From positions 1-53,223 of the IMG/VR virus record IMGVR_UViG_3300024952_000001: DNA of 53,223 nt; one strand, given 5' to 3'. The DNA is from a virus (lineage: Duplodnaviria; Caudoviricetes). Of this stretch, positions 8,706 to 50,307 are shown one piece after another (the first letter of the stretch is position 1; each line of letters opens with the position of its first letter). Below the pieces are notes generated by a model, which saw nothing but the letters and a program-made list of their open reading frames with translations, was not told where the DNA came from and searched no databases. The translations under genes and the position numbers were made by a program.

Positions 8706-8715
8706 AGTAAATAAA

Positions 8716-8793: not shown

Positions 8794-8795
8794 TG

Positions 8796-9042: not shown

Positions 9043-9061
9043 ATTTTATGAAAGGTAGATC

Positions 9062-12290: not shown

Positions 12291-12754
12291 CTAACCAAGT
12301 AAATCAAGCGTTTGAGAAGTGGTATTTAATACATAGTGATGGGTATTCGCACAATGGGTTAAAGAAAGCATGGCAAGCCGCCACCAAATCCAGCGAGAGT
12401 GAAATAAATTCACTTAAGCAACGTGTGGAGGAACTCCAAGCAGATAACTCGCGATTGAGGGATGCTTTGGAGAGAATAGTTAAAGCAGATGACAATGTTT
12501 ACAACTGCGAAGATGATTACCAAGGTGACGTAATAGGTAAATTGTCAGACATTCACTTTAAAGCATATAACAAAGCTCGCAAAGTCCTATCCTCAACCCC
12601 TACGCAATCATTAGCATCGCATGATAATGAGGTGATTGAACGCTGTAAAAACATTGTGGCCAATGACGCACTAGCGATTACGTTTCAAAGCATGGGCGCA
12701 TATAGAAGCGCCATCATCAAACAAATAGGCGAACTGAAAGCCGAGCATGACTAG
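12287..12754 (+). CDS. Hypothetical coiled-coil protein
   Basis: AFEKWY...AWQAA module followed by a coiled coil. Confidence 0.7.
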   Translation: MTNQVNQAFEKWYLIHSDGYSHNGLKKAWQAATKSSESEINSLKQRVEELQADNSRLRDALERIVKADDNVYNCEDDYQGDVIGKLSDIHFKAYNKARKVLSSTPTQSLASHDNEVIERCKNIVANDALAITFQSMGAYRSAIIKQIGELKAEHD

Positions 12755-12901: not shown

Positions 12902-13117
12902 ATGAGTGAGTTTGAAATAGCATTAAAAGCAGTGCAGACTTATGCAGAAATGCACCCAAGGCCGCTACAAGTTACGCAGAAACAAGCAGCGGAGATATTA
13001 GGCATTAGTCAAAATACACTTAGAAAGATTGTATCTCGTGGCGATATTAAGCTGAATAAAATTGGCATGATTTCAATTACTGAGATAGATAATGCCTTAC
13101 TTAGTCGAGCAGCTTAG
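12902..13117 (+). CDS. xis: Excisionase-like HTH protein
   Basis: VTQKQAAEILGISQNTLRKIVSRGDI; adjacent to and convergent with the integrase. Confidence 0.75.
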   Translation: MSEFEIALKAVQTYAEMHPRPLQVTQKQAAEILGISQNTLRKIVSRGDIKLNKIGMISITEIDNALLSRAA

Positions 13118-14072
13118 AAATGTCGCTTGCTTTCGGGTTGTAGTAAGTGAGCGCCATTTTAGTGTCTGACCAGCCAAATATCTTACATAGAGTCAAAGCA
13201 TCAACCTTACGGCTGATCCACGTTGCTGCAGTATGTCTTGCATCGTGAAAAGTAAAGCCTTCTAGCCCGGCTTTATCCCTAGCCTTTCTGAATAGCACAT
13301 CACGCACGGTATCAGTTAAATTAAATACCAGCGCATCATCGTAGCCTCGCATTCGCTCTATCAGCCTGATTGCTTTCTTTGATAACGGCACATTGCGCGG
13401 AATGGTTTTTGTCATCGGCAGAATACAATAATTTGACTTAACATTAACCCAAGTTAAATCACACAACTCACCTGCCCTCATGCCAGTTCTAAGTGCTACT
13501 AAAAAGCATACCGCAACTGACTGTGATTTGTTTTTAATCTCACCTCTGGTTAAACCAAACGCTTTCAGCATTTTCTTAATCTGCCAGCGTGTTATTGTCA
13601 CTTCTCTATGCCTTGGTGCCGGCGGCTTTCGCACATCTTTGAGCGGATTTTCAGAAACCCACTTTAACTCGCGCCTGGCGAACTCAAATATAGATCGCAA
13701 CATACCAAGCTCACGGATAATAGAGCCAGCACTAAGCGTCTGTTTATCGCGCCATTGGCCTATTATTTCGGTAGTACATTTTGACAAAGGCTTATCTATT
13801 GGCAGGGCGCTCTTTAAAAACTTATTGATACGCACCACTTCCCAACGCGATCCGCGCTTTGTGATTGAAACTTCATCACGGTATTTTTCTAATAGATCGC
13901 GCAAGGTATGCTTATCCGATACAGGCAGCTTATCGCTGGCACGTAATTCTGTTTCACGCGCACTTGCCCAAGCGTTAGCTTCACGCATTGTACGGAATGT
14001 TTGGCTGTCTCGTACGCCTTTGACATAGACAAAAGCTCGATAGCCCTTGGCTGATGGCTTAATTGAGGCCAT
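13101..14072 (-). CDS. int: Tyrosine integrase
   Basis: TGMRAGEL, TK, FHDARH, GW and YY catalytic set (R-K-H-R-W-Y). Confidence 0.95.
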   Translation of the reverse strand: MASIKPSAKGYRAFVYVKGVRDSQTFRTMREANAWASARETELRASDKLPVSDKHTLRDLLEKYRDEVSITKRGSRWEVVRINKFLKSALPIDKPLSKCTTEIIGQWRDKQTLSAGSIIRELGMLRSIFEFARRELKWVSENPLKDVRKPPAPRHREVTITRWQIKKMLKAFGLTRGEIKNKSQSVAVCFLVALRTGMRAGELCDLTWVNVKSNYCILPMTKTIPRNVPLSKKAIRLIERMRGYDDALVFNLTDTVRDVLFRKARDKAGLEGFTFHDARHTAATWISRKVDALTLCKIFGWSDTKMALTYYNPKASDISKLLD

Positions 14073-14451: not shown

Positions 14452-14541
14452 ATGGATAAAATATTATTGCTCGCTGGTTGGGTGGTTTTAGCTGGCTGTG
14501 CTTTATTTTCTATTGGGCGACTGCTTCTTTCTTTTTTCTAA
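14452..14541 (+). CDS. Putative 29-aa hydrophobic peptide or mini-lipoprotein
   Basis: MDKILLLAGWVVLAGCALFSIGRLLLSFF with an LAGC lipobox; in-frame upstream ATG at 14407. Confidence 0.35.
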   Translation: MDKILLLAGWVVLAGCALFSIGRLLLSFF

Positions 14542-23500: not shown

Positions 23501-24589
23501 CTGTACAGGGGCGTTAGAGGCTGGTGCTAAATCTTCTTTGCCAGGCTCTTTATTCTTACCACTTAATAAAGCAGAAGCACCGCCACCCATTGCAGTGCCA
23601 GATAACAAGCCCATTGCCGCGGCTTCGTCCACGCCTTCTGTTAGTGGTTTATCAAGTGCAATGTTAGATAAAATTTGCTCTTGGATTGATTGCGGCATTT
23701 CCTCGAAAACACCCTCTGACATACCACCTAACACCAGTCGTTTAGCTAGTGACTTTTTAACCTCTTCGGTTACACCGCCAGCAATAACGGTATCAATATC
23801 GGCAATGCTTAGCTTCTGTGCAAGCTTGCCACCAAACACGCTAGTTAACGCAGTCCCCAAGCCTGATGCAACCGACAAGCCAGACTGTTTGCCAGTAAGC
23901 AATCCATCTTTAGTTTGCTGGCGCGTGCCTTCCGCTGCGGAACCTGCACTTATCACACCCTCACCAACTGCACCGGCAATCACTGGATTTGCGCCTAATG
24001 CAACTGCGCCACGGCCTACCACGCCGCCAGCGCCCATCAAAGGTGCTGATTGCGTGACAGCGGAAACGATACTTCTAGGGTTTTGAATGGCAGCAATAGA
24101 CTTATCTATAAATCCATCTGCATCAGACACAGCTTGATTAGCTGCTTTTTGTTCGTCAGAGAACTTTTCTGTTAAGAACTGCTTAGCCTCGTTTGGTTTA
24201 TAGCCAACCTCTTCTAGCGCCTTACCTACACGGCCACCAGTTGGAATGTCTGCTAACCCTACTACGGCTTCTGGAACCGAAATAGCGCCTTGCACTAAAT
24301 CGTTTGCACGATCAAGGCCGAATATACCTGTCTCAACTGTTTTTCTTAAAGCAGCTTTGCCTAAATCTTTAAGGCCAGTTAAGCCCTCTTTATAGACATT
24401 GCTTAACTTGTCGCTTGCGCTTGGCGTGCTAAAACTATCAAACTCAGAGCGTGCTTTTTCTAAATCTTCATCTGGAACATTGGGCTTTACAACAAATTCA
24501 AAGTATTCGTTTCGTGCCGCCTCTTTTTGCGATGCATTTAACTTCTGATACTCTGGGTTGTTGACAACATCATTCCATTTTTTTGCCAT
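14510..24589 (-). CDS. 3359-aa large polyvalent protein, probably an internal virion/ejection protein
   Basis: ParB-like VLDGHHQW; LPD5-like DFGEKLEGARKD; LPD1-like FGFRGIQFGEW...LAHEWFHALD; second zincin FAHEAIGH; LPD38-like C-terminus; last gene of the virion module. Confidence 0.85.
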   Translation of the reverse strand: MAKKWNDVVNNPEYQKLNASQKEAARNEYFEFVVKPNVPDEDLEKARSEFDSFSTPSASDKLSNVYKEGLTGLKDLGKAALRKTVETGIFGLDRANDLVQGAISVPEAVVGLADIPTGGRVGKALEEVGYKPNEAKQFLTEKFSDEQKAANQAVSDADGFIDKSIAAIQNPRSIVSAVTQSAPLMGAGGVVGRGAVALGANPVIAGAVGEGVISAGSAAEGTRQQTKDGLLTGKQSGLSVASGLGTALTSVFGGKLAQKLSIADIDTVIAGGVTEEVKKSLAKRLVLGGMSEGVFEEMPQSIQEQILSNIALDKPLTEGVDEAAAMGLLSGTAMGGGASALLSGKNKEPGKEDLAPASNAPVQESNGQLLTISQGGEFADDALAAQKQAEYDAAEAKLSEQKAEKFKTLPDKNLQNLRKTAQTLTPADVPMIDAEIERRANLGTLTRAAEIAQQVDPLATQPVVAPAIPVNNEAIDAADLLEAENVSDLPNDGVTNVVADPTQEEGNYVQGSLGDLPNQLAGRSDTGPIDNSTEASAQGSGSDQLNGNGIQGNDAIAILNGEDAVSRPFAQATDDFLPKMRSMTTDDKVKAQIDEELKLRGIANVDTVNTPAVRVDETEKGVHVGEKINKEWTAFSPESGTLNIPRSEMPQVKAEHRGAMVNFLNARGVDHTQETVSASSLKPTQQEFSEAKVKKASKYAGGDRSILVSSDNHVLDGHHQWLSKLNKGGDVDVIRLNAPIAQLLNDVKEFPSSTVESGATTIEPSEKSGQVKVSDDVDYSTMSYDKLQQAREEGRAKNKALDLAVIRKYAGDKLANEAKSWSQRSIDKWFEQNATAEIENESSAFKGVDVDKIDAYSQAFNNFDETSPQALGSSIALKMRDIDKPDFVGSPEFVTIRNALAYSKEQGWKESDVLDAMRERAESYAGRDAPELFERLFKTKPITSGNGKVTEALPVEASEQPAKASKPKTSKPAKPKTLLATLRDLGGIALTEKRDVTGEVKGFAPGGYNQVFKSNTTRSLKGLIESGDLDDYLPYNMRLESNGANDDAFDSTEAYDYLADKIRNGESVLPYAVEEEVKANQYYQEVEATAQDVLDDFAKNFNEDEINAELQIAGTNEREAFADVQVFKPDSESGDTGSGERGTAATETNASQQAEVDNKSANKTASIKDAEQDKSLLSDSKDNKSDLLGDNTTAKQAVADAERAKDAKRNSGNDNQDTFTLTGSNSEADQAAAAGAQDLFAAPKSETKPQNEVAKAAEALTAAGVRGKEKLDTIKDVREGKVTADEVADAYGEPATQKPKGNVDDFGEKLEGARKDMVRAMAKEYSDDELASLPLSKIWPITDVNLIENKTAAAIAWTAREEIPSKPRKPYALKVWVGKVKILRDIGRIVSKALEVNPELMLQKLKDAQLGQFKSKVALLEAIDRDAWKRIGKVEEYPNAYSYVDGVKQIKPMVRIDVDGVTTTYEASSVADVIDNVNEKLGKEKQEKRMAFEVRGSSKGGYFINKKGDKNYTKLKTFDSSKEAFEFLRNNYDEVVAAWDATKDRLNVKESDVRGKENRPRTGEDYRKGKDVSSEEFATTFGFRGIQFGEWVKQGGKDNDRQGALNAAYDALMDLANIVGVPPKAMSLEGTLGLSFGARGKGSAAAHFEPGNLVINLTKTQGAGTLAHEWFHALDNYFSRKRGGEKSMAEVKSQQAYREGNYITYKPEALYINKNYGNKGITKAELERYRKQSPNSKYWSEENWILDPKHPQGVRPEVEVRFADLVDALNTSPMKQRARSIDSVKEGTDGYWSRIIELGARAFENYVIHKMQLNGYDNDYLANVVRVDSFNRDSSRFPYLLDEEVAPVAEAFDNLFSEIQTKETDSGNVVMFSRSNANATPYRGMDKDKAQSIIDELQKSHKGIPKVKLVDHHSKLPISSNLIEEINGSEQLLIERLELVTQLPSEQNIQAALSVRINDVEGLYSNGEIWINTNAINSEERLREVFAHEAIGHMSVASMLNEVDKTLFPKLLTQVKTLNKAGNKYIRAIWDDVKESQPDIDDTAMAGEVLAFIAERGDQDVEMSPVVRSIWQRLIDGIKAFAKLVFNVEMTDVDVRDIVSMASRYAKGEDVVSLISSNNMYYSRNNREPSKESGDTFLTAALEFTARNEDLFENAPSDSKDIADIAKDMNTQFRVEPFGKSQTKLDGAEKAWEVFMPNYKYRSAVIYEKGNEVWINVSRLQSGENQGNEIYSLAAAYAYNNDKVFIGDPLGLTDKAFYRRAENMLSSALKYGTTKHIEPHVAQTDPDLYYSFDEKTKDFGESVRKINWKKGDDAHNIKELIYTVYHGAITNIPELKNVIFNPTTQGFTTIDGEQFTDKDFARVVSDYYARTDSGSGSRNDDGNTRSLGDNEPKKSNPYRAGVRTAKRAALFNTFLREKSGERRSEVLGSYVRELQNRGLADSLKGTFYSRSTSNPSQSSLTPKWDALENSTWSENLRRTLQDKNIDLKRVTQNIKAAGVNLADRWDAYLQEELYHGRAAKRVKDFLDNELNPLIEDMRARKVSIDDLQQYLWNRHAEERNIQIAKVNPDMKDGGSGITTQDAKDYLSALTPEDKSNYEALAARVYAINAGSRQTLVDYGLESAGTISTWNNTYKSYVPLKRDEMDLGFGMGTGQGFSVKGGAAKRAMGSSKQVVDIIANIAQQREQYIIRGEKNRVATALVGLAKTNPNEDFWEVDNPPRIRMIGKESGLVEEYTDPTYKNHPNVIVARILNKRGEVEERSVVFNKSNERAMQLSASMKNLDVDQMEGWLRDWVAPITRYFASVNTQYNPIFGTLNIIRDVQGALLNLSTTPIAGKQKGVLKLLTPALRGIYADTRTANGIKKPLQFFSYTQSQKQQAQAMRTLWEEFQREGGKTGYRDMFANAAERSEAIQKSIDPTWWAKTKLGKVVSANGLLTVPEEMIKDKTIKPIFDWLSDYNETLENSVRLAVYKVAVDNGQTKQQAASIAKNISVNFNRKGNMGQNLGALYAFFNASVQGTARIAETLTGKRGQQIVAGGLLFGAMQAVALMLAGFGDEEPREFVRDRNIIIPLGDKRYATIPMPLGYNAIPNLGRILTEWALSGFEKTNDRFTHILSMSAEVFNPIGGNGSIMSIVTPTALDPVNDLSQNKDWTNNQISREDINQNAQTAGFTRTKDKTWSGYVEIARFINKLTGGTEYTAGNISPTGDAIDYLVGQAFGGVGRELSKAGTTAEALLTGEELPPYKVPLVGRFYGDAKGQAAQSSEFYNNLRMLGKHETEIKGRRADNIGTQEYRKENPEAALIAHAKQSDKIVRNLRKLKESKVEAGAPASEVKAVDERITKQMQKLNELVRKKKEAVAQ
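21121..21270 (-). CDS. Candidate nested +1-frame gene (49 aa) inside the giant gene
   Basis: GAGG-N9-ATG; MQNSKLQEQTKEKRLQMFRSLSPTARVAILEAAKEVQQQQKLTPVSKRK; host frame is a disordered linker here. Confidence 0.4.
   Translation of the reverse strand: MQNSKLQEQTKEKRLQMFRSLSPTARVAILEAAKEVQQQQKLTPVSKRK
22921..23136 (-). CDS. Candidate nested +1-frame gene (71 aa) inside the giant gene
   Basis: AGAGG-N6-ATG; globular-looking LPMWLQTPLKKKVITFKEAWEIYL...LPKHLHKAAEAINLMEM; host frame is low-complexity. Confidence 0.5.
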   Translation of the reverse strand: MSATYRMMELPMWLQTPLKKKVITFKEAWEIYLISLQDGAIQDQLITLPKHLHKAAEAINLMEMEYKGTMQ

Positions 24590-38734: not shown

Positions 38735-39853
38735 TTAGCTTGGGTCAGCTACCGCAGTATCTAAGGCGATTACACCAAAGTCGCGTGAGGTGCCGTCCAC
38801 TGTGAAAGCGGTTTTCTTCACACCAAAGATAGAGCCGGTAGTAATCACAACTTGATTGCCGCGATCTTCCATTTCCTCGTTCCAATCAAAGCGCAAGCCT
38901 GTACCAGCGGAACCGAAGGCAACTACAGCGGCTTGACGGCCTAAGAACAATGCACGCGCTGCCGTTACGTTGTTACCTGCGCCGTAGTCATTGAAGCGGA
39001 TTACATTGCGGTGAGAATGCAGGATCACGTTGTTATACATGCCCAAATTGCCCTTGAATAATGGGTTATTACGACCTTCTGCCGTAGCTGCTGCTTTCTG
39101 AATATCCATCCAGCCACCAGCGCCAGCATCGCGGCGTAAGTCATACTCTTGCCAAGGGTGCATTACGATAACGTAGTGCTCTTCACCATCAATCATCACT
39201 GGTTGAATAGATGGAACGCCACCTGTACCGCCGCCCATCGTTGCAGCACGCGCAACAGTACGGTCAATCAAAGCAAGATCAAGCTTGTCTGCTGAATCAA
39301 TCGTGCCTTTACTGGTTGCGTTGCCGCCATGCAATAAGTGCTTGTCATCTGGCGCAACTAAAGCATTGCCTGCGTAGCCGGCGAAGTCGGTATCTTCAAT
39401 GAAATCATCATTGATACCACGAGCACCAGAAAGGTAAGTGAATAGCGTTTCGTCAAACAAACGTGACCACCATTCAGCTTGACGTGTTTTCGCAATCTTA
39501 CGAATGTCGTGAATCGTGCGCTTGTTACTCATTTTGCCGCCGCCGTTAACGCCGCCGCGGAATTGGTCAATCAAAAGACTATCGGTATAGAACTTCAAGT
39601 CCTCTTCTTTGCCACGCAAGGTTTTGTCGCCACGAACAGGCTTCATCTTGAGTTGCATTACCAGGTCATACGAAATTTTGTCGCCTGAATCTTGCTCAAG
39701 ATCGGTAAGAGTTTGAATAGGTGTTTGTGCATCTTCGCCAACACCCATCATCTTTTTGTTGAAATATGAAGTGCGGCTTACATCAACCGCTAATAATGCC
39801 GAATATTTCTGTACGGCTTTTGGATCGCCAACGCCAACTACTGACTTTGCCAT
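38735..39853 (-). CDS. Major capsid protein, N4-gp56/DUF4043 family
   Basis: GDKISYDL..LRGKEEDLKFYTD..IDQFRGGV..NPLFKGNLGMYNNVILH..GVKKTAF..DFGVIALDT. Confidence 0.9.
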   Translation of the reverse strand: MAKSVVGVGDPKAVQKYSALLAVDVSRTSYFNKKMMGVGEDAQTPIQTLTDLEQDSGDKISYDLVMQLKMKPVRGDKTLRGKEEDLKFYTDSLLIDQFRGGVNGGGKMSNKRTIHDIRKIAKTRQAEWWSRLFDETLFTYLSGARGINDDFIEDTDFAGYAGNALVAPDDKHLLHGGNATSKGTIDSADKLDLALIDRTVARAATMGGGTGGVPSIQPVMIDGEEHYVIVMHPWQEYDLRRDAGAGGWMDIQKAAATAEGRNNPLFKGNLGMYNNVILHSHRNVIRFNDYGAGNNVTAARALFLGRQAAVVAFGSAGTGLRFDWNEEMEDRGNQVVITTGSIFGVKKTAFTVDGTSRDFGVIALDTAVADPS

Positions 39854-39948
39854 AGTGTTACTCCTCTAAAAGTTAAAATTCACTCCGAGGCACTCATGCG
39901 CGTCAGTTTTGTTACGTTCTTGCTATTACAAATGCATTTATACGTCCA

Positions 39949-39960
39949 ATAATTGCATTT
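39949..39960 (-). promoter_or_regulatory. AAATGCAATTAT motif, followed after 6 nt by TATAAA, upstream of the capsid gene
   Basis: Identical 12-mer also at 24637 and 44062. Confidence 0.6.
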
Positions 39961-39963
39961 GCA

Positions 39964-40170
39964 TTAAGGCTTATTCATTGTTAAACCATTTTTAGCGATT
40001 GCCGAAGCGCTGCCGCCAGCCTTACTTACCGCCAAAACAACATCGCTATCTGCTTTAATGTCAAGCCTAGCAATCTGTCCAGACTTCTTAAGAATAGTGA
40101 TCTCAATACGTCCATTATCAAACGTGATTGATTCGCCTACTTTTAAATCTTGCTTTATGGTTTTACTCAA
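39964..40170 (-). CDS. CsrA/RsmA-like protein
   Basis: LKVGESITFDNGRIEITILKKSGQIARLDIKAD follows the CsrA beta-strand pattern but lacks HREE. Confidence 0.6.
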   Translation of the reverse strand: MSKTIKQDLKVGESITFDNGRIEITILKKSGQIARLDIKADSDVVLAVSKAGGSASAIAKNGLTMNKP

Positions 40171-40191
40171 AATAAGCCTTCAATGCTTTTA

Positions 40192-41037
40192 TTAGCTTGT
40201 TAAATAACGTTGCACTTGCTCTGGGTTAAGCTTGGCTACCGCACGTTCCAAGTCCATGCCAGTTAGTTTTTCCAAGTGCGCAAACTCACCGCCATTTTCT
40301 GAATCGGTATCAGCTGCAGGTAGATTGCTTAACGTTTTTGGAATCTTGCTAAGGTCTGGCTTACGGACTGTGCGCTTCTGTTCTGTATTAGAAGCAGTAC
40401 CAAAGCGCTCACGCACAATCTTGTCAGCTTCATTTAAAAAGAATGTGCCTTTTTGATTGACGTATTTAGGGTCATTAGCCAGGTCAATCACCGCGGCATT
40501 AAGTGCGGCCATTACGATTTTGTCTTTGTAGATAGCATTACGTTTATCGCCAAAGAATTGTTCCTGCTCCCACTTCCAGCGCTCATTATCAATATGAGCA
40601 TTTTGCTTAGCGGCATTCTCTGCGCTTGCTTGCTTGATGCGCAGTGCGGTTTCTTCATCAGAAATTTCATCTTTCTTAGCCTCATACTGGTCAAGATCAA
40701 TGTCGCCGTTGTTTAACTGATCACGCAACTCAGCCTTAGCGGCTTTAATGTCAGCCATGCGCTTATCAAAATCATCAACAAACTCAGCCGTTTGTTTTGG
40801 GATAAATGCATCTACGGCCTCGGCTTCATCAGACAAGGCATCGTCTGCGGCATCGTCAGCATTAACATCGTTGCCATCGCCACTTGTGGCATCAGCATCA
40901 TCTTCGGAATCATCATCGCCAGCGACTGCACGCAATGCGTCCGCATCATCCGCGCCGTCATCTTCGCTATCATTAAGCGCAGCCAACTCTTCTGGTGAAA
41001 GCCCTGCTAGTGATTGGTCGTCATCTTCTACTGCCAT
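40192..41037 (-). CDS. Capsid scaffolding protein
   Basis: Very acidic N-terminus plus coiled coil; between portal and capsid. Confidence 0.75.
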   Translation of the reverse strand: MAVEDDDQSLAGLSPEELAALNDSEDDGADDADALRAVAGDDDSEDDADATSGDGNDVNADDAADDALSDEAEAVDAFIPKQTAEFVDDFDKRMADIKAAKAELRDQLNNGDIDLDQYEAKKDEISDEETALRIKQASAENAAKQNAHIDNERWKWEQEQFFGDKRNAIYKDKIVMAALNAAVIDLANDPKYVNQKGTFFLNEADKIVRERFGTASNTEQKRTVRKPDLSKIPKTLSNLPAADTDSENGGEFAHLEKLTGMDLERAVAKLNPEQVQRYLTS

Positions 41038-41086
41038 AATATTTACTCCTGTTTCTTGGGTTGTGGTTGGTAAAACTGGTTACTGC

Positions 41087-41317
41087 TTAATCGTCACTAT
41101 CACCGTCAGGCTCTTTTCTGTCTTTCTTACCAGCAAGGCCGGATGCTTCCATCGCGTCATACTGTTTCTTGGCACAGGCCCGGGCAGCTGCAAAGCGCTT
41201 CGGGTCTTTTTTGATCTTCTCAGCTTCTACCAATGTGCGCATATCTTCCTGCGCCTGCCATTCGTTCATGTTTGAATCTTCTGCAATTTGCACTTTCCCT
41301 GCATTTGTTTTAGCCAT
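41087..41317 (-). CDS. Small head-module protein
   Basis: WQAQEDMRTLVEAEKIKKDPKRFAAA. Confidence 0.7.
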   Translation of the reverse strand: MAKTNAGKVQIAEDSNMNEWQAQEDMRTLVEAEKIKKDPKRFAAARACAKKQYDAMEASGLAGKKDRKEPDGDSDD

Positions 41318-43601
41318 TTCTCACCCCGTCATTTTCGATAGTTTCAATACCTTGATTTACCCCTTGCATGGCACTTTGAGCTGCAGCGCCATTCATTGGG
41401 TCTTGGTCTAATGGTTGTACTGGCGCAACTTCTGCCGCCTGATTGACTGCTGCTTGCTCTTGATTGGTTGGTTTAAAGCCTGCGCCTTTCATGATTTCAT
41501 CAGCTACGGCTGCGGCATTAGGTACCGTTGCAACTACTTGACCTGCTTGTAATGCTGCATACATCGCTTTAATGCGCTCAGTTAATGCCTGTGCATCTAG
41601 CTTGTCAGTTTCAGCAATTAACTTAGATAATTGGTTGCGCATCGTTTCTATTGCCATTTCCTGCTGCATTGATTGCACTTTTGCGGCCTGAGCCTTTGCC
41701 TGTGCTGCTTCTGGCGTTTCTTCTGCTTCTGGATCTGATTGTCCATTGATTGAACGAATGCGATCCACTAACTGCTGCTTATTAGGCAGGTCTGCCATCT
41801 CAATCACTAAATCCAGCAAGTTCAACGCTACTTGTGGGTTCATCTGGGCTAGGCGACCAACAATATCAAACAAGCTTTCAAACATTGCTTGTCTTAAGCT
41901 GCTGCGGTAGTCCTGTTCGCTTACTACAAAATCGGTTTGGAATTGTGTAATGTCATTGATGATGTTGCCTTCTTCATCCGGCACATTGATTTCTTCATAC
42001 TTAGGCTGGCCTTTTTCACCAGTAATTCGCACTACCTTTTGCTCGGTATAAAACTGCTCTACGTTAGATAGTTCGATTTCGCCCACTAACTGCACTGAAT
42101 AGCGTAGGTTGTCAAAAATCTGTGTAGTTGATACGCTGCCCTGCTCTTGGCGTGCTGTAATCGCTACGCCACTATTAGCGTTCGTTTGGCGGCCTAAGTT
42201 CTCTGCTGTGATGCCTGAAACGTTACGAATATGCTGCACGTTTCTGTCCATCAGCTTCAATTGCTCCTCTGCAAGCTGAATATCACGGTTGAATGATAAC
42301 TCTGCACCTTTTTTCTTTACAATTAAGAAGTCCGGACGCGATGCCTCTTCTCGCAATTCATCCCAATCTTCTACCGCACCCTCTTCGGCAATAATGCCGT
42401 TGGCTGAAAGAATCCATAGCGCTTTTGATTGGCGCTTGTTTAAATCATCTTGTGGGTCACGTAAACCACGAATCACGCCATAAGGTGCTTTGTCGCGTCT
42501 GCGGCGATAGCACCACACCGGAACAAATGGGAAACGGTTATGCTCGTAGGGCGATTCACTGTCTGCAACTAATCCACCGTCACAGAAAATAGCGCAGCGC
42601 ACTTGCATTTCCAGCTTGTCATACAAGCTGAATTGATTGCGTAAAGCTTCTATGTGCTCAGGGTTCTCTTTATCAAACACCTGGTTATCAAAGTCACCGC
42701 CGCTAAACTTTCTGACTAACACAGGTACTTTGTACCAGCACTCAGTCATTTTCACGCGCTCTCTGGCATTTAAGCCTTTTGCGCTGCCGTCATACGGCAT
42801 GTATTTGCCAATGCTTGCGGTTGGTTGATAATCAAATCCTGCTTGAGTAACTCGCGCACCAAGGTAATAAGATTCTTCGTCCTCTTCATATCGCTGGTTT
42901 GTGCTAATGCTAGATTTGATAATGTCCGAACGCTCAGGAAAATAAGCCACAGCAATGTCGGCATCAAGCCAGCGGTTACGGAAAATGTAACGCCCATCGC
43001 TCAAATCCATTTCATTAGCGTTGCTGTCATAAAGAACATTGAGCCAATCTTCATTGCGCGTATAAATAAGCTCTTCTGTTGGGTCACCGCGAACGCCTGA
43101 TTCAATCCAGCCAACACCAGCCTTTACTGCTGATTCAAATGCAAAGCTACGGCTAAATGGCGTTTTATTAACGTCTGACAAATACTTAAGCAGCATTGTC
43201 TTAATTTCTGCATCTTTGCGACTGCCTTCGTCTTTACGTCTAGCCAATACTTTATGGTCAATGCGCGTGCGGCGCTCCGTGCCTATAATCCAATCAATGG
43301 TTGGCTTGACCTCATTGAACACCAGTGGTGCTTGTCCGCGCTCCATAAGCACCTGTGCATCTTCAACCGACCATTGCATTGAATCGTAATAATCTTCATC
43401 TAGCGCCATTTGATAGCGGTTAGCAGATTGCAAGCGCATTTCTTGGTCGTACCATTCACGAATCTGGCTTAAGCGCTTTTGGCTGGCCTGATTATCTAGT
43501 GGGTTTTCTGGCTGCTCATCCGGTTCAACTTCACTCGTTACATTGGCGAATGGATCATGCGAACTGCTGCCGCGCACATTGGTAAATCCGTTCTGGCTCA
43601 T
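41310..43601 (-). CDS. Portal protein (P22-like)
   Basis: DEDYYDSMQW, RGQAPLVFNEVKPTI, FPFVP, YGVIRGLRDPQDDLNKR, NSGVAITARQEQG. Confidence 0.92.
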   Translation of the reverse strand: MSQNGFTNVRGSSSHDPFANVTSEVEPDEQPENPLDNQASQKRLSQIREWYDQEMRLQSANRYQMALDEDYYDSMQWSVEDAQVLMERGQAPLVFNEVKPTIDWIIGTERRTRIDHKVLARRKDEGSRKDAEIKTMLLKYLSDVNKTPFSRSFAFESAVKAGVGWIESGVRGDPTEELIYTRNEDWLNVLYDSNANEMDLSDGRYIFRNRWLDADIAVAYFPERSDIIKSSISTNQRYEEDEESYYLGARVTQAGFDYQPTASIGKYMPYDGSAKGLNARERVKMTECWYKVPVLVRKFSGGDFDNQVFDKENPEHIEALRNQFSLYDKLEMQVRCAIFCDGGLVADSESPYEHNRFPFVPVWCYRRRRDKAPYGVIRGLRDPQDDLNKRQSKALWILSANGIIAEEGAVEDWDELREEASRPDFLIVKKKGAELSFNRDIQLAEEQLKLMDRNVQHIRNVSGITAENLGRQTNANSGVAITARQEQGSVSTTQIFDNLRYSVQLVGEIELSNVEQFYTEQKVVRITGEKGQPKYEEINVPDEEGNIINDITQFQTDFVVSEQDYRSSLRQAMFESLFDIVGRLAQMNPQVALNLLDLVIEMADLPNKQQLVDRIRSINGQSDPEAEETPEAAQAKAQAAKVQSMQQEMAIETMRNQLSKLIAETDKLDAQALTERIKAMYAALQAGQVVATVPNAAAVADEIMKGAGFKPTNQEQAAVNQAAEVAPVQPLDQDPMNGAAAQSAMQGVNQGIETIENDGVRNG

Positions 43602-44020
43602 GCCATCTGCCCCATATCAGGCATTGATACCTCTTCGTGCCTAATGGTTTTGCCATCAACCTTGACTAGCATTTCACCAATGGCCTGCTCAACCTTTTGT
43701 TCTTGCGTAGGCTCTGGCGGCATTTCAATCAGGTCTGGTAAGCCTTCAATGATTACGTCTGCGATTTGATGTGCGGAAAACTTAGAAGCCTCAAAGCCCA
43801 TTTGTTTAGCTGCGGCGAAGGATTGGCTAACCAAGTAATTGATGTTTGTGTACTTGAACGCTGCTGATAGGCACAATACAAACGCGCCATTAGTAAGCGT
43901 GCGCTTAACCTTTGGAAATAGAACCATTGCTGGCTCTTCATTTACCCATTGAAACGAGCAAACAATGTCGCCAATCGTTCTGATTTTATAAGCTTTTTCG
44001 CCACCTAGAGTTACAGGCAT
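43598..44020 (-). CDS. Hypothetical protein upstream of the portal
   Basis: SD AGGA before ATG 44020; ATGA overlap with the portal. Confidence 0.75.
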   Translation of the reverse strand: MPVTLGGEKAYKIRTIGDIVCSFQWVNEEPAMVLFPKVKRTLTNGAFVLCLSAAFKYTNINYLVSQSFAAAKQMGFEASKFSAHQIADVIIEGLPDLIEMPPEPTQEQKVEQAIGEMLVKVDGKTIRHEEVSMPDMGQMA

Positions 44021-44061
44021 TTGTGAGAATCCTATGAGAATGTCCACAAATTCTGCCGTAC

Positions 44062-44073
44062 ATAATTGCATTT
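44062..44073 (-). promoter_or_regulatory. AAATGCAATTAT motif, followed after 6 nt by CAGAAT, upstream of the portal operon
   Basis: Identical 12-mer also at 24637 and 39949. Confidence 0.6.
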
Positions 44074-44096
44074 GATTCTAGGTGTATACTTAAACC

Positions 44097-44225
44097 TCTA
44101 GTGCAATGCGTAGGCGATACGCAGCGTGATGACTTAAGCAAAGTGAGAGAGCCTGCCCGTTAGGTTGCATACGTTACCGGAGCCACTTAGGTAATGCCAG
44201 GTTCGCATCTGGCGCACTAGAACCA
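44097..44225 (+). ncRNA. Candidate 129-nt tRNA-like RNA antisense to the late operon
   Basis: TATACT at 44085-44090; TCTAGTGC/GCACTAGA-ACCA; adjacent T-arm-like gccag-GTTCGCAT-ctggc; terminator directly after. Confidence 0.65.
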
Positions 44226-44245
44226 AGAGGCTTCGGCCTCTTTTT
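44225..44245 (+). terminator. Rho-independent terminator for the plus-strand RNA
   Basis: aagaggc-ttcg-gcctctt plus T tract. Confidence 0.85.
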
Positions 44246-45877
44246 CTATGCCGTGCGCCAGTTGCCTGATTTTCTGGCCTTCGGTCTATTTTGGCCAGCA
44301 ACCTTAATCAGACCCAATGCTTTAGCCTGTGCAAACTGTCTAAAGCTGTCTGCGCCCTCGCTGTTAATGTCATGCTTTGGTAACTCGCTCCATCGCTCTT
44401 GTTTCTCATTCCACTGCTTCTTGTAGTTATCCAGCCGAGTAATGCCAAGTGCGCACGATTCTTTATCAATATAAACCTCAGGCATAGCCTCGCGCGTTTG
44501 CTGGATGCCATCTTGAATGTTTGTTATGCGCGGTACAATTTCTATATTTAGAAGTCCTTTATCCTCAAACATTTCTTTGACGCTTTTGTTCTCCTCGCTC
44601 AATCTCTTATGGTCGGCGTCATGCGGCATGAAATGCTTACCCCAAATATAGTTTTTACTTTGAAGAAGCTTAACGTAATGGCCTATCGTTTCTCCATGCC
44701 CTTCTTCGTAATCAATAAATCGATACTCCATGCCAACCATCTGCATAAACCATACAGCACAGCCGTCACCATTGCCAATATCCCAAAAGGTAAACACTGG
44801 CAAATCGAGCTTTGGTATTTTTAGTATGCGGCCTTGCTTACGCATGATAGACATTTGTTTGTGATAGTAATTGCCTTCAATAGATACTTCAAAGGCCTCT
44901 TTAGGCGTACTTGGATATTCCCGATTCATCACTTCCTTTTCCCACGAAAAATCATTTTCTAAAGTCACGACATACCATGCACGCTGTTCTAAATCTATTT
45001 TTGTATTCATGAGCACTTCAATCTCATTAAAATACTCATGCTGCTTGTCAGTTATGTTCACACCATCTGGATTTATTCTGTATTCATCTGCAGCGAACCA
45101 TGGGTAGAAGTGCAATTTAAAATCTTTTCTATTTGCCTCCCTGCCAGCCTCTTCACGCTTTATAGAAGCCTGCACCTTGTCGTGGTAATCACCCTCTTTA
45201 CCTTCTGCAGTACTTTCGATAATGATGATTCCAGTTGTTGGCACAGCAGGGATTGAGCCTGTTTTAACTTCTTTTGCTTTGTCCGGGCTTTTTGCACAAA
45301 TTTTTCCGTACTCTGAAACGTGAAGCCTGTGGATTGTGCCGCCACGTAAAGATGTGGCAACGCGAACGCTTGAGTTATTGTGTGCAAACACAACTTCTGA
45401 CTTGTTTTGTGAGGCTGTTGGGAACATTGCCTTCAAAGATTCAGGCATGTTGTTATAAGCAAACATTACCTTATCTCTGAATATGATCTCAGCATTTTGT
45501 CTATCTTGAGCGATGATGCCGCAACGTGCGTTTGGATTGTATAACGCATGGTCCAGCCAAAGAATTGCAACTAATGTCGTAAACCCAAGCTGGCGAGCTT
45601 TTAGTATTAAGTTTCTATTCCACATGCGCTTCATAAAGCGCAGTTGGTGCCTATTAGGGATAAAAGGCAGCACAGTATCTTCTGTTAGCTGCTCACCGTC
45701 CTCTGACACTTCACCTTTAATGATGATTTTATAAATTTTGCCGGACGTAATCCTCCACCATGGATCCTTTAGGTTTTTAAACAGCTCTTTAATTTCAGAC
45801 TTTTGTTCGTCAGTTAAAGAATCGTCTAGCAATTCATCGTTAATACTAACTGCAGCTTCAATCATCTTGCACATCAA
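44246..45877 (-). CDS. terL: Terminase large subunit
   Basis: Walker A ILKARQLGFTT, LHVSEYG, IESTAEG, nuclease FWDIG; start may be ATG 45865. Confidence 0.95.
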   Translation of the reverse strand: MMCKMIEAAVSINDELLDDSLTDEQKSEIKELFKNLKDPWWRITSGKIYKIIIKGEVSEDGEQLTEDTVLPFIPNRHQLRFMKRMWNRNLILKARQLGFTTLVAILWLDHALYNPNARCGIIAQDRQNAEIIFRDKVMFAYNNMPESLKAMFPTASQNKSEVVFAHNNSSVRVATSLRGGTIHRLHVSEYGKICAKSPDKAKEVKTGSIPAVPTTGIIIIESTAEGKEGDYHDKVQASIKREEAGREANRKDFKLHFYPWFAADEYRINPDGVNITDKQHEYFNEIEVLMNTKIDLEQRAWYVVTLENDFSWEKEVMNREYPSTPKEAFEVSIEGNYYHKQMSIMRKQGRILKIPKLDLPVFTFWDIGNGDGCAVWFMQMVGMEYRFIDYEEGHGETIGHYVKLLQSKNYIWGKHFMPHDADHKRLSEENKSVKEMFEDKGLLNIEIVPRITNIQDGIQQTREAMPEVYIDKESCALGITRLDNYKKQWNEKQERWSELPKHDINSEGADSFRQFAQAKALGLIKVAGQNRPKARKSGNWRTA

Positions 45878-46433
45878 TCATATTTGAACTTGCAATAGGC
45901 AACGATGAACCCATTAGCTGCTGAACAAGCATTAGCATTGGGTTTGTTTTCTGCTTATTGTCCTTCTCATAAGCTCCTAAATGCTTCATGAGCCGGTCAA
46001 GTGCCGCGCCTTTTTCAACAAGCTTCACTTTCTTAAGGTAACCTACAAACACACGGTCTTTCCCTGAGCCTTCGTACTGCTCAAGAACTTCAATGCTTGA
46101 GATTGCTGCGCCTGCTTCTGGCGGCCATTCACTAATAGGCTTTACAGCACCATCATCATCAAGAATCGTGCGAATATCAAAGAAAGCCACATTCATGTTC
46201 TCTAATAGAACGCGCTCAAGGGTTAGCTGCGTCTTTTCAATTACTGGTTTTTTTAACTCCTCTAGCCTCGCTGCAATCTCGCTTCGCTTCAAAAGCATAT
46301 AAGCATTGTTATTTACAGTTTCTGGCTTCATCCTTTCGGTATTAAATGCAGACTTATACGCATCACTAGCATTACCTGTTTCAATGTAGGCGAGGCAGAA
46401 GTTTTCTTGTTTAAGAGTTAGGCCTTTAGCCAT
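45858..46433 (-). CDS. terS: Terminase small subunit
   Basis: LTLKQENFCLAYIETGNASDAYKSAF...KGAALDRLMKHLG. Confidence 0.92.
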   Translation of the reverse strand: MAKGLTLKQENFCLAYIETGNASDAYKSAFNTERMKPETVNNNAYMLLKRSEIAARLEELKKPVIEKTQLTLERVLLENMNVAFFDIRTILDDDGAVKPISEWPPEAGAAISSIEVLEQYEGSGKDRVFVGYLKKVKLVEKGAALDRLMKHLGAYEKDNKQKTNPMLMLVQQLMGSSLPIASSNMIDVQDD

Positions 46434-48594: not shown

Positions 48595-49130
48595 AGAAAC
48601 CCCACCACCTTAGCCATCACATCATCCAACTCTTTGCGGCCTGCGTAGTTGGTGAGCACCTTTTCAAGCACTACCGTTGCTACTGCGCTATAAACCTGCT
48701 CAAACTGCACATCATCCATGCTGGCGAAGCTGATTGATTGCGCTTCTAGCCTCATATTTCCATCAAGGTCAAAGGTCTGATCGTAATAACCTGCCTGAAT
48801 CACTACATCTTTACGGAATCGCTCAAAGCTTTTTGCTACTGGCTGGCCTTTGTACTGTTTGTGTTTGCGCTCTGGGTGCCATGCCTCGAAAGCAAAGTTC
48901 AAAAGCGCAAAGAATTTGCGGTGAAACTTGCCGTTACGTGGGAATATCGCCTCAAAATCTACAATCTCACCTACTTCAAGGTTGTTGATACGCTTCCAAA
49001 ACTTGCGCCATGCTTTGTTATCCTGCTCACTTACACCGCCAAGCACGCTGAATAGGTACTGATATAGCGCCTCTTTGTGCGTTTCTGATAGCTCTACATC
49101 AGCGCGTTTGGTTATGGTGAAGTCGCTCAT
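48591..49130 (-). CDS. DUF1367-family protein
   Basis: RNGKFHRKFFALLNFAFEAW..FERFRK..AGYY..SISFASMD..FEQVY. Confidence 0.85.
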   Translation of the reverse strand: MSDFTITKRADVELSETHKEALYQYLFSVLGGVSEQDNKAWRKFWKRINNLEVGEIVDFEAIFPRNGKFHRKFFALLNFAFEAWHPERKHKQYKGQPVAKSFERFRKDVVIQAGYYDQTFDLDGNMRLEAQSISFASMDDVQFEQVYSAVATVVLEKVLTNYAGRKELDDVMAKVVGFL

Positions 49131-50098
49131 TCGCACAACCCATAAATTGAAGTGCACATAACGGCTTCACCTTGAATATCGCCAACTCTTAACAAGTCAA
49201 ACTGCTTGCCACCTCTACTTGTTTGTGACCACTGCACAACTTTGTCAATTGTTTGCATTGAAGACCATTCATGCTTTTGTTCATCGGTTAAATGAAGCAT
49301 TGATTTGTTTGGCGCTGGGAAGAATGTTGACGCGCCGCGTTTACTAGCCAACTTAACAGCTAATTCCCAATCTTGAATTCGCTCAATAACCTCTGGGAAT
49401 CGTTTGCTTATTTCTAGCAATTCGTCTTTACGGCAGTTAATGCAAGGCATGCACCCAACACGCCCCATCCCCATTTCATACAGTGGGTTGTGTTTTACGT
49501 TGTGCTTTCTGTGCATCGCAAAACAATCTTCTACAGTCCAATCTAAAATTGGTCTGTAATTCCATAGTTCAGCACCATTTTTACCTACAGACTTCAATTC
49601 ATTCTCTGGTAGATTTGCGCGCCTAATTGATTCATCGCGCCTTACACCTTGCCAGCTAATAACATCGTCACCAGCTTCAAGCAGTGGGTTTTGTACTTGA
49701 TTGATAATTGGATTGCGTTTTAACTCTTCTGAGCAAAAAGCGGCTTTACTTGATGGAAACCTGCCTTTCCAAAGGCATAAATCTAAAAATGGGTTACCTG
49801 TTGGGGTCATCGCGTTTGATGCGCGATCAATAGCCTCTTGGCTTACGCCTTTTTCTTTCCATTTGGTTAAAATGTAATCTTTTTTATGTGCAATTTGCTT
49901 TGTAAAGTCAGCCTTAACCACACGTATTGGAAACACGTTGTCCTGTAGATATTTGATGTAGTCATAAGTAATTTGATGCTCATTGCCAGTGTCGGCAAAT
50001 ACAGCTTGCAAGCCTTCTGGCTGGCGCTCTATAGCAAGTAAAAGCAATGCTGTACTATCTTTGCCGCCTGATACGCTAATTATGTTATGTTCGCTCAT
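49127..50098 (-). CDS. PAPS reductase-family (PP-loop) protein
   Basis: SVSGGKDS, FADTGNE, FCSEELK, GVRRDES, RPILDW, NPLY..RVGCMPC. Confidence 0.9.
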   Translation of the reverse strand: MSEHNIISVSGGKDSTALLLLAIERQPEGLQAVFADTGNEHQITYDYIKYLQDNVFPIRVVKADFTKQIAHKKDYILTKWKEKGVSQEAIDRASNAMTPTGNPFLDLCLWKGRFPSSKAAFCSEELKRNPIINQVQNPLLEAGDDVISWQGVRRDESIRRANLPENELKSVGKNGAELWNYRPILDWTVEDCFAMHRKHNVKHNPLYEMGMGRVGCMPCINCRKDELLEISKRFPEVIERIQDWELAVKLASKRGASTFFPAPNKSMLHLTDEQKHEWSSMQTIDKVVQWSQTSRGGKQFDLLRVGDIQGEAVMCTSIYGLCE

Positions 50099-50100
50099 AC

Positions 50101-50307
50101 CTACCACCCTAACTTTGCCGGCTCTTCTACAGCACGCTCTTTTGCCTCAAACTTAGGGCAAGCATTAGCCAGCCAAAAGTCTTTGAAGTTAGCGCGAACA
50201 GGGTTAGGCTCGAAGCGCTTGCAAAACTCACGGTCTGCGCATACGTGTGTGCCTACTGGTGATTGTCCACGGCAATTTTCGTAACTGTTGATTGGTAAAG
50301 GCTTCAT
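50101..50307 (-). CDS. Small Cys-rich protein
   Basis: CRG..VCADREFCKRF..CPKF. Confidence 0.65.
   Translation of the reverse strand: MKPLPINSYENCRGQSPVGTHVCADREFCKRFEPNPVRANFKDFWLANACPKFEAKERAVEEPAKLGW

What the first reader, a model, noticed from the sequence alone, without database searches (positions are those of the whole stretch)
44085..44245. Self-contained tRNA-like RNA gene running antisense between terL and the portal operon
Seen: a complete plus-strand unit inside an otherwise minus-strand late region. TATACT lies 6 nt before an 8-bp stem TCTAGTGC/GCACTAGA ending in ACCA. A T-arm-like hairpin (gccag-GTTCGCAT-ctggc) stacks directly on the stem, other hairpins are present (tgcgta/tacgca, agcct/aggtt, ttacc/ggtaa), and a UUCG terminator follows at once. 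It shares the 12-mer caatgcgtaggc (44104-44115) with RNA 2 of the early cluster (8834-8845). No good -35 element is visible. Inference: an RNA 'moron', possibly expressed in the lysogen and of the same class as the early RNAs.
Basis: partly seen in the sequence, partly recalled or inferred. Interest (0 to 1): 0.75.

Follow-up and report, generated by a model that had tools for sequence, protein, structure and literature searches.

The report
Orphan tRNA-shaped RNA cassette in phage
A temperate phage carries, between its DNA-packaging genes and pointing the opposite way, a small cassette that most likely makes a 129-base RNA with a tRNA-like end; it is strikingly conserved but has no known relatives and its job is unknown.

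Summary
The 174-nt terL/157-aa-gene gap (44072-44245) contains a TATACT box and a 129-nt stretch (44097-44225). That stretch is closed by a perfect 8-bp stem with an abutting T-arm-like hairpin and ends in ACCA. A UUCG terminator follows.

It is not a tRNA, tmRNA or any Rfam family. The plus strand folds better than the minus strand (z -2.2 against -0.4).

The cassette is an indel. It is present in 2 of 6 junctions of close relatives. The others have a short gap with a minus-strand terminator, or opposite-strand ORFs.

In the only other copy the 5.65-kb contig is 81% identical overall. The longest identical run there (141 nt) is exactly this RNA. All 4 substitutions inside the cassette fall outside the RNA body (p = 0.004).

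No diverged homologue was found, so there is no covariation. There is no expression evidence. The terminator is ruined in the second copy.

Best reading: an accessory (moron-type), independently transcribed, tRNA-shaped small RNA. It is probably trimmed by tRNA-processing enzymes and its target is unknown.

Its kinship with the early RNAs is weak. One oddity: 25 nt of its first hairpin are identical to a stretch inside a gene of an unrelated siphovirus lineage.

The parts
44072..44245 (.). Whole intergenic cassette between the ATG of the 157-aa gene (44071) and the terL stop codon (44246-44248). It is an indel relative to close relatives.
   Evidence: In one search a DNA contig of run X5 replaces 44076-44245 with 52 other letters.
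44085..44090 (+). TATACT, a -10-like hexamer 6 nt before the RNA. It is part of the cassette and is absent from relatives that lack the RNA. No -35 element is present.
   Evidence: It is unchanged in the second copy.
44097..44225 (+). Predicted 129-nt RNA body, including the 3' ACCA.
   Evidence: There are 0 differences in the second copy.
44097..44104 (+). 5' strand of the 8-bp closing (acceptor-like) stem.
   Evidence: pair probabilities 0.87-1.0.
44107..44123 (+). Hairpin 1 (6-bp stem, loop GGCGA), in the D-arm position. It lies within the 25-mer 44103-44127 that is identical to a stretch in a siphovirus gene.
44124..44172 (+). Central domain with an ill-defined fold. Candidate hairpins lie at 44132-44144 and 44150-44166. 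It sits where a tRNA has its anticodon arm.
   Evidence: low pair probabilities and alternative folds within 1.6 kcal/mol.
44173..44195 (+). Long hairpin (6 + 3 bp), in the position of a class II variable arm.
44196..44213 (+). T-arm-like hairpin GCCAG(G)-UUCG-CA(U)CUGGC, stacked directly on the closing stem.
   Evidence: pair probabilities 0.8-0.99.
44214..44225 (+). 3' strand of the closing stem (44214-44221), followed by ACCA (44222-44225).
44225..44245 (+). UUCG-loop hairpin plus T run, an intrinsic terminator for the + strand. It is destroyed by two substitutions in the second copy.
   Evidence: One search gives -10.6 kcal/mol here against -1.0 in the second copy.

Best explanation
The gap holds an accessory (moron-type) small-RNA gene on the + strand.

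Proposed steps:
1. A weak promoter with a -10 box only starts transcription at or a few bases before 44097.
2. The 129-nt RNA folds into a five-armed, tRNA-shaped molecule. It has an 8-bp acceptor-like stem stacked on a T-arm-like hairpin, a D-arm-like hairpin with GG in its loop, an enlarged central domain where the anticodon arm would be, a long extra arm, and an encoded ACCA end.
3. The stacked stem, hairpin and ACCA form the minihelix that bacterial RNase P and the 3'-trimming and CCA-repair enzymes recognise. So the ends are probably cut and kept like those of a tRNA, which would make the RNA stable.
4. It has no anticodon loop, so it cannot decode. It most likely acts in trans as a tRNA look-alike that occupies or diverts a host or phage factor that handles tRNA acceptor ends. 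That factor could be a tRNA-targeting defence enzyme.

Shown here: the anatomy, the strand preference, the indel status and the conservation. Inferred: transcription, processing and the decoy role. My odds are about 0.6 for a real + strand RNA gene, and about 0.2-0.25 for the decoy role specifically.
For: 1. Conservation. The only other copy sits on a 5,651-nt contig that is 81% identical overall. The longest identical run there is 141 nt (44096-44236) and coincides with the RNA. The next longest runs are 68 and 50 nt. Within the 174-nt cassette all 4 substitutions (44078, 44095, 44237, 44240) lie in the 45 nt outside the RNA body, hypergeometric p = 0.004.

2. Strand. ACCA follows the stem only on the + strand. 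The T run follows the GC hairpin on the + strand only. The fold has four G-U pairs, which would be A-C mismatches on the - strand. The z-score is -2.19 for + against -0.37 for -.

3. Cassette behaviour. The RNA is present in 2 of 6 junctions examined: the window and contig L004/L006/L007/L029. It is absent from L002/L008, L009/L030, L001 and the X5 contig. The TATACT box comes and goes with the RNA. The terL/157-aa junction varies from 57 nt to about 2 kb across 16 relatives where both genes were located. In L001 it holds three opposite-strand ORFs.

4. The same phage encodes CCA in its tRNA-Met. Directly downstream of that tRNA it has a second RNA (8876-9042) with an 8-bp closing stem plus ACCA.

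5. Precedent. RNase P is known to process phage non-tRNA RNAs, namely phage M3 RNA and the C4 antisense RNA (passages of PMC11143913). T4 makes the small RNAs RNAC and RNAD, whose role is unknown (passages of PMC3014915 and PMC9697503).
Against: - No diverged homologue exists, so there is no covariation test of any helix. The two copies are identical.
- There is no transcript evidence (one search is uninformative).
- The promoter is only a 5-of-6 -10 hexamer. It has no -35 and no proper TGn extension, and the promoter scan does not call it.
- The terminator is not conserved: -10.6 kcal/mol here against -1.0 in the second copy.
- The fold z-score is modest and the central 49 nt have no stable fold.
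- The T-like loop departs from the tRNA consensus. No tRNA or other Rfam model matches, even at E <= 10.
- Perfect identity could partly reflect a recent recombination patch rather than selection.
- Nothing computed here points to a particular binding partner.
Confidence: 0.55

Rival explanations
1. Cis-antisense regulator of the late operon, working like lambda OOP RNA. The + strand transcript pairs with the perfectly complementary terL/157-aa intergenic part of the late polycistronic mRNA. That would trigger cleavage or uncouple the portal genes from terL. The tRNA-like end would only stabilise it.
For: - It is a short + strand unit with its own -10 box and terminator inside a - strand operon.
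- It lies 26 nt upstream of the start of the 157-aa gene.
- The phage is temperate, so silencing leaky late transcripts would make sense.
Against: - The complementary target exists only because the cassette is there. Relatives manage without it.
- The RNA does not overlap the ribosome-binding site or start codon.
- It is tightly closed by an 8-bp stem, which disfavours pairing.
- The ACCA and the T-like arm are left unexplained.
Confidence: 0.13
2. The functional molecule is the - strand: a structured spacer in the late mRNA. It could be a processing or stability element, or an insulator between terL and the 157-aa gene.
For: - Relatives without the cassette carry a - strand terminator-like hairpin in the same gap, so the gap does hold late-mRNA signals.
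- A sequence that is structured on one strand is largely structured on the other.
Against: - The - strand fold is no better than shuffles: z = -0.37, with 75 of 200 as good.
- Four G-U pairs become mismatches on that strand.
- The ACCA, the T run and the TATACT box are all + strand features.
Confidence: 0.1
3. A decaying relic with no present function: a tRNA-derived gene or a patch of foreign DNA. Its identity between the two contigs would come from recent recombination.
For: - ARAGORN, with its threshold lowered to 80% and introns allowed, threads 44098-44221 as a 'tRNA-Thr(ggt)' with a 32-nt insert.
- The terminator is already broken in the second copy.
- Only two copies are known.
- A 25-nt patch is shared with an unrelated phage.
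Against: - The same ARAGORN run also yields an obviously spurious call on the other strand. At default settings nothing is found.
- Substitutions inside the cassette avoid the RNA body (p = 0.004). That is not expected of a neutral relic or of a patch that brought its own flanks.
- The block of identity ends where the RNA ends.
Confidence: 0.12
4. Trans-antisense RNA matured by RNase P, working like the C4 RNA of P1/P7. Loops of the RNA would pair with a target mRNA of the same phage.
For: It has a closing stem with an ACCA tail and several hairpin loops. The C4 precursor is an RNase P substrate (PMC11143913 passages). The C4 architecture itself is recalled from memory.
Against: - There is no match to the Rfam C4 model or any other family at E <= 10.
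- The best duplex with 67 translation-initiation regions is matched by 19 of 100 shuffled RNAs.
- The longest complementarity to a late mRNA is a 13-mer inside a coding region, which is chance level.
Confidence: 0.06

Closest known systems
Phage T4 RNAC and RNAD (species 1 and 2 RNAs)
   Same: They are small stable phage RNAs that are not tRNAs, are made alongside phage tRNAs, and have no known role (PMC3014915 and PMC9697503, passages). That they have tRNA-like, CCA-bearing ends is recalled, not checked here.
   Different: The T4 RNAs lie in the tRNA cluster on the same strand as their neighbours. This RNA is a stand-alone cassette on the opposite strand inside the packaging and head operon. 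No sequence relation was tested, because no T4 sequence was fetched.
C4 antisense RNA of phages P1/P7 (the Rfam C4 family; accession recalled as RF01695) and phage phi80 M3 RNA
   Same: They are phage-encoded non-tRNA RNAs whose precursor is cut by host RNase P through a tRNA-like end (PMC11143913, passages).
   Different: This RNA has no Rfam match at E <= 10 and no complementary target was found in the phage. It is 129 nt against about 77 nt for C4 (length recalled).
Class II tRNAs and bacterial tRNA-Sec (8-bp acceptor, 5-bp T stem, 6-bp D stem, long extra arm; layout recalled)
   Same: The arms come in the same order, with an 8-bp acceptor, a 2-nt linker, a 6-bp D-like stem with GG in its loop, a long extra arm, UUCG in the T-like loop, a discriminator A and CCA.
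   Different: It has no anticodon stem-loop; about 49 nt of undefined fold stand in its place. The T-like loop has 8 or 6 nt rather than 7. ARAGORN and Rfam RF00005 both reject it.
Lambda OOP-type short antisense transcripts, and morons of temperate phages
   Same: It is a self-contained unit with its own promoter-like box and terminator, set against the direction of the surrounding operon. It is present in some relatives and absent in others.
   Different: Morons usually encode proteins. OOP has no tRNA-like shape, and its target exists independently of it.
phi29 packaging RNA (pRNA)
   Same: It is a structured phage RNA of similar size associated with portal and packaging ATPase functions. 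Here the gene lies between terL and the portal.
   Different: The resemblance is positional only. This RNA is absent from close relatives that have 82-88% identical neighbouring proteins, so it cannot be an essential motor part. There is no Rfam match.

Membership tests
tRNA (Rfam RF00005; ARAGORN) | Cloverleaf with a 7-nt anticodon loop, recognised by tRNA detectors | tested here: not met
   ARAGORN on the window finds only tRNA-Met at 8716-8793. Rfam at gathering score gives the same. No tRNA match at E <= 10 in 43900-44400. The only threading is sub-threshold and needs a 32-nt 'intron'.
tRNA (Rfam RF00005; ARAGORN) | Acceptor stem stacked on a T arm, then a discriminator and CCA | tested here: met
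   An 8-bp perfect stem, an abutting 5-7-bp hairpin, then A-CCA.
tRNA (Rfam RF00005; ARAGORN) | Canonical 7-nt T loop (TPsiCRANY) | tested here: not met
   The loop is GUUCGCAU (8 nt), or UUCGCA (6 nt) if the G-U pair forms.
tmRNA | tRNA-like domain plus a tag reading frame and pseudoknots | tested here: not met
   ARAGORN finds no tmRNA (default thresholds). There is no Rfam match. At 129 nt it has no tag ORF.
C4 antisense RNA (Rfam C4 family; accession recalled) | Match to the family model | tested here: not met
   All 4227 Rfam families were scanned at E <= 10 over 43900-44400. Five weak matches were returned, none of them to C4.
C4 antisense RNA (Rfam C4 family; accession recalled) | Loops complementary to a target in the same phage | tested here: not met
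   No significant duplex with 67 translation-initiation regions; 19 of 100 shuffles do as well. Only chance-level k-mer matches were found.
Y RNA / YrlA | Match to the family model; Ro-binding stem | tested here: not met
   No Rfam match at E <= 10.
Moron (accessory transcription unit of a temperate phage) | Present or absent among otherwise syntenic close relatives | tested here: met
   Present in 2 of 6 junctions.
Moron (accessory transcription unit of a temperate phage) | Own promoter | tested here: inconclusive
   TATACT lies 6 nt upstream and travels with the cassette. There is no -35, and the promoter scan does not call it.
Moron (accessory transcription unit of a temperate phage) | Own terminator | tested here: inconclusive
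   A clear + strand terminator is present in the window. It is destroyed in the second copy.
RNase P substrate (non-tRNA) | Cleavage by RNase P at the 5' end of the stem | not testable with these tools
   Only the minihelix-plus-RCCA shape is seen. Testing needs an in vitro or in vivo cleavage assay.
Conserved structured RNA family | Compensatory base changes in helices across homologues | not testable with these tools
   Only two copies were found and they are identical.

The most novel reading that the evidence does not exclude
The RNA is a tRNA-scaffolded antisense weapon of a prophage against a competing phage.

- Bases 7-31 of the RNA (44103-44127, hairpin 1 and its flanks) are perfectly complementary over 25 nt to the mRNA of a real coding gene. 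That gene is a 131-aa ORF just after a J-like tail protein in an unrelated siphovirus lineage of similar G+C content.
- In the retrieved members of that lineage the site lies in the longest invariant nucleotide block of the 1-kb region aligned around it. Those members were selected for containing the 22-mer.
- Twelve of the same bases are also displayed in a hairpin loop of the early RNA at 8834-8845.
- Complementary hairpins are how natural antisense RNAs meet their targets.

If this reading is true, it would be RNA-guided superinfection exclusion without CRISPR.
Probability: 0.04. Interest if true: 0.85.

Novelty: new variant of a known kind. Interest (0 to 1): 0.45.

Why it matters
Phages are known to make a few small RNAs with tRNA-like ends, such as T4 RNAC/RNAD, phi80 M3 and P1 C4. 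Most of these still have no assigned function.

This example is unusual in several ways:
- It is not in a tRNA cluster.
- It is a mobile-looking, opposite-strand cassette dropped into the packaging operon of a temperate phage.
- It is kept letter-perfect while its neighbours drift by about 20%.

That makes it a clean candidate for asking what such tRNA look-alikes do. They might act as decoys for tRNA-directed host defences, as processing handles, or as antisense regulators. A single deletion in a lysogen could test it.

Its value is limited because the host is unknown, only two identical copies exist, and nothing yet shows that it is transcribed.

Tried and rejected
**Expression**
- One search for sequencing runs and one laying of 4 runs were done.
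- The RNA-library contigs (X6) lie on 43340-43706 and 45123-45257 only.
- X7 (labelled 'RNA? probably DNA') has no 99%-alike piece on the cassette.
- Both runs are contigs, so a hole proves nothing either way.

**Homologue hunts that found nothing beyond the one identical copy**
- Exact scans of viral contigs used four segments of the RNA.
- One scan of metagenome contigs and one of genome contigs (0 hits) were run.
- Covariance model R1 was run over 16 and then 22 sources and over 5 whole related records.
- blastn against 50,697 phage records gave no match for the 1.1-kb region.
- For the 161-nt cassette it gave only generic matches of at most 30 nt (at most 19% of the query), the listed ones mostly to the terminator end. 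One was inspected and is a terminator after a Vibrio-phage gene.
- The tools warn that records very near the window may be left out.

**Other dead ends**
- The early-cluster block CAATGCGTAGGCTACCTCTAGTG has 0 other viral contigs. The early cluster is absent from 5 related records.
- terL in genome contigs gave only one 39%-identical Burkholderiales MAG. A terL protein search gave no named close relative; the best named hit is a Methylotenera MAG at 60%. The host therefore stays unknown.
- Target search at translation starts was not significant.
- A loose 'stem + hairpin + NCCA' descriptor was not significant.
- attP relic was rejected, because the integrase lies 30 kb away.
- Small protein gene was rejected. 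The gap has no + strand ORF of 40 aa or more, and the only - strand ORFs there are TTG-started frames that overlap the flanking genes.
- CsrA sponge was considered after a CsrA-like gene turned up and rejected, because the RNA has a single GGA.
- Three opposite-strand ORFs in L001 have no Pfam family.
- Hartmann et al. 1995 is not held in the paper library.
- Paper supplements were not consulted.

Full report
**Context.** The window is a complete viral record of 53,223 bp with direct terminal repeats.
- It encodes a CI-like repressor (1415-2113, +), RecT and an exonuclease (+), and a tyrosine integrase (13101-14072, -).
- It also encodes replication, NinB and NinG functions (-). It is therefore a temperate phage.
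- Its large terminase is about 53% identical to those of Bcep22-, F116- and related podoviruses.
- Genes at 954-12754 run on the + strand. Almost everything from 13101 to 53150 runs on the - strand.
- The finding lies in the - block, between terS/terL (45858-46433 and 44246-45877) and a 157-aa gene (43598-44071). That gene is followed by a P22-type portal (41310-43601).

**The observation.**
- TATACT lies at 44085-44090.
- The 8-bp stem is 44097-44104 paired with 44214-44221.
- The abutting T-arm-like hairpin is at 44196-44213.
- ACCA is at 44222-44225.
- Three further hairpins are present.
- A UUCG-loop terminator lies at 44225-44242, and the scan calls it on the + strand only.
- The same scan finds no sigma-70-type promoter here.
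- The minimum-energy fold of 44097-44225 keeps the closing stem, hairpin 1, the long hairpin and the T-like hairpin, with pair probabilities of 0.6-1.0. The central 49 nt have no stable fold.

**What it is not.**
- ARAGORN finds one tRNA in the window, tRNA-Met at 8716-8793.
- Rfam at gathering score finds only that tRNA.
- With permissive filters and E <= 10 over 43900-44400, Rfam returns five matches. The best has E = 0.38. None is to tRNA, tmRNA, C4, Y RNA or any phage RNA. The best one on the + strand is just the terminator hairpin.
- ARAGORN run locally threads 44098-44221 as a 'tRNA-Thr' with a 32-nt insert. That needs the threshold lowered to 80% and introns allowed, and the same run makes a spurious call on the other strand.
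- So the element has the order of arms of a class II tRNA but is not a tRNA by any detector.

**Which strand.**
- The + strand folds to -44.8 kcal/mol (z = -2.19; 3 of 200 shuffles as good). The - strand folds to -37.1 kcal/mol (z = -0.37; 75 of 200).
- The difference comes from four G-U pairs.
- The ACCA after the stem, the T run after the GC hairpin, and the TAnnnT hexamer at the right distance are all + strand features.

**The cassette is an indel.**
- In contig IMGVR_UViG_3300037389_000006 (loci L004/L006/L007/L029) the same cassette sits in the same gap.
- In two other contigs the 157-aa and portal proteins are 82-88% identical. There the gap is about 55 nt and holds a - strand terminator-like hairpin instead.
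- A wastewater DNA contig replaces 44076-44245 with 52 other letters.
- In L001 (terL 70% identical) the gap is 1.35 kb and carries three ORFs on the strand opposite to terL. None has a Pfam family.
- Across 16 relatives where both genes could be located, the terL-to-157-aa distance ranges from 57 nt to about 2 kb.
- The junction is therefore a hot spot for accessory cargo. The TATACT box belongs to the cargo.

**Conservation.**
- The second contig aligns to 39141-44794 at 81% identity.
- The longest run without a difference is 141 nt, at 44096-44236. This is the RNA plus the first half of the terminator. The next longest runs are 68 and 50 nt.
- Within the 174-nt cassette there are four substitutions. 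All four lie in the 45 nt outside the RNA body. The chance of that is 0.004.
- Two of them destroy the terminator hairpin of the second copy: -1.0 against -10.6 kcal/mol. So the terminator is not a conserved part. In that phage the 3' end would have to be made by processing.

**Search for relatives.**
- Exact scans of the viral collection with four segments of the RNA found only the second copy. The one exception is described in the next section.
- A genome-collection scan with the T-arm 22-mer found nothing.
- Covariance model R1, built from the two identical copies, finds no paralogue in the window.
- R1 also finds no homologue in 37 further loci or in 5 whole related records.
- Hence no covariation test is possible.
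- Public runs gave no usable expression evidence.

**Relation to the early RNAs.**
- Directly after tRNA-Met lie a stem-closed domain (8796-8875) and a 167-nt RNA (8876-9042). The latter also has an 8-bp closing stem, a hairpin next to its 3' strand, and ACCA. The 253-nt stretch has z = -4.15.
- R1 does not match it.
- The late 44094-44115 consists of the blocks ACCTCTAGTG and CAATGCGTAGGC. The early 8834-8856 has the same two blocks in the reverse order, with one base between them.
- One 12-mer alone is at chance level, because an unrelated 13-mer match exists at 37141. By my estimate, two adjacent blocks together occur by chance about 1 time in 1,000.
- So some shared ancestry or exchange of a short piece is likely. 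'Same class' rests only on the common design.

**An unexpected match.**
- The hairpin-1 22-mer also occurs in four other viral contigs (L019-L022) and two further metagenome contigs (L025, L026).
- The identity is 25 of 25 nt (44103-44127), and nothing else is shared.
- Those contigs belong to a siphovirus with a J-like tail protein.
- The match lies inside a 131-aa ORF on the opposite strand. That ORF is truly coding: 12, 3 and 38 variable columns at codon positions 1, 2 and 3.
- So the late RNA would be antisense to that mRNA.
- Among the six sequences, the 25-mer lies in the longest invariant block (50 nt) of the 1-kb region aligned around it. This is biased, because the sequences were retrieved through the 22-mer.
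- My rough estimate of a chance 22-mer hit that extends to 25 nt, given four probes, is 0.003-0.02. It assumes a collection of the order of 1e11 bases, a size no call confirmed. I treat the match as real but unexplained.

**Mechanism.**
- The most economical reading is an accessory small-RNA gene on the + strand.
- Its coaxial stem, hairpin and ACCA are the shape that RNase P and the 3' end-trimming and CCA enzymes recognise.
- Phage RNAs matured this way are known: the M3 RNA and the C4 RNA (PMC11143913, passages). T4 RNAC and RNAD are small phage RNAs of unknown role from the tRNA region (PMC3014915 and PMC9697503, passages).
- Lacking an anticodon arm, the RNA cannot decode. A role as a tRNA look-alike that binds a tRNA-handling factor is my preferred guess, but it is inference only.
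- Target searches within the phage were negative. That lowers a C4-like model.
- A cis-antisense effect on the late mRNA and a - strand role remain possible but fit fewer features.

**Earlier notes of this scan (unchecked AI notes).** They describe several other phage RNAs with an acceptor-like stem and ACCA. One of them lies after a terminase gene. They suggest the design recurs in phages. I could not compare sequences, and I do not count them as evidence.

**Verdict.**
- This is a real, well-delimited, strongly conserved, orphan element. It is most likely a tRNA-shaped accessory RNA.
- It is a new variant of a known but poorly understood kind.
- Interest is moderate. It would rise sharply if the RNA proves to be expressed in lysogens and to affect other phages or tRNA-directed defences.

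Noticed in passing
window 8716-9042 (+): tRNA-Met (8716-8793, CCA encoded) is followed without a spacer by a stem-closed multi-hairpin domain (8796-8875). After that comes a 167-nt RNA (8876-9042) with an 8-bp closing stem, a GAAA-loop hairpin next to the 3' strand, and ACCA. The 253-nt stretch folds with z = -4.15. There is no Rfam family, and nothing similar in 5 related records.
   Followed up: partly
window 44094-44115 and 8834-8856: Two blocks (ACCTCTAGTG and CAATGCGTAGGC) are shared between the late and the early RNA, but in permuted order. The exact early version occurs in no other viral contig. The meaning is unknown.
   Followed up: partly
window 44103-44127; L019-L022, L025, L026: There is a 25-nt perfect identity with the opposite strand of a 131-aa coding ORF that follows a J-like tail gene in an unrelated siphovirus lineage. 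The match lies within that lineage's longest invariant block of 50 nt.
   Followed up: partly
window 39964-40170 (-): A 68-aa ORF sits between the 281-aa gene and the major capsid gene. It resembles CsrA, the RNA-binding global regulator (Pfam PF02599, E = 6e-5, 23.3 bits, below the 27-bit cut-off). Its start region (40151-40218) is the second-longest identical run (68 nt) between the window and the related contig.
   Followed up: partly
L001 4617-5968: At the same terL/157-aa junction, a relative carries three ORFs (117, 92 and 146 aa) on the strand opposite to terL. None has a Pfam family. This looks like a protein-coding moron cassette at the same hot spot.
   Followed up: partly
L006 about 5083-5103 (equivalent to window 44225-44245): In the second copy, two C-to-A changes abolish the terminator hairpin that follows the RNA (-1.0 against -10.6 kcal/mol).
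   Followed up: yes
window 14510-24589 (-): A single 3,359-aa ORF lies next to the integrase. It was not analysed.
   Followed up: no
window 49127-50107 (-): A PAPS-reductase-like gene (phrog_424, E = 6.5e-74) lies in the replication and Nin region.
   Followed up: no
window 44028-44077: The first 44 nt of the 157-aa gene and the 6 nt upstream are identical in the second copy. They are nearly so in the two RNA-less relatives, whose other parts differ by about 20%. This may be a conserved translation-start element.
   Followed up: no
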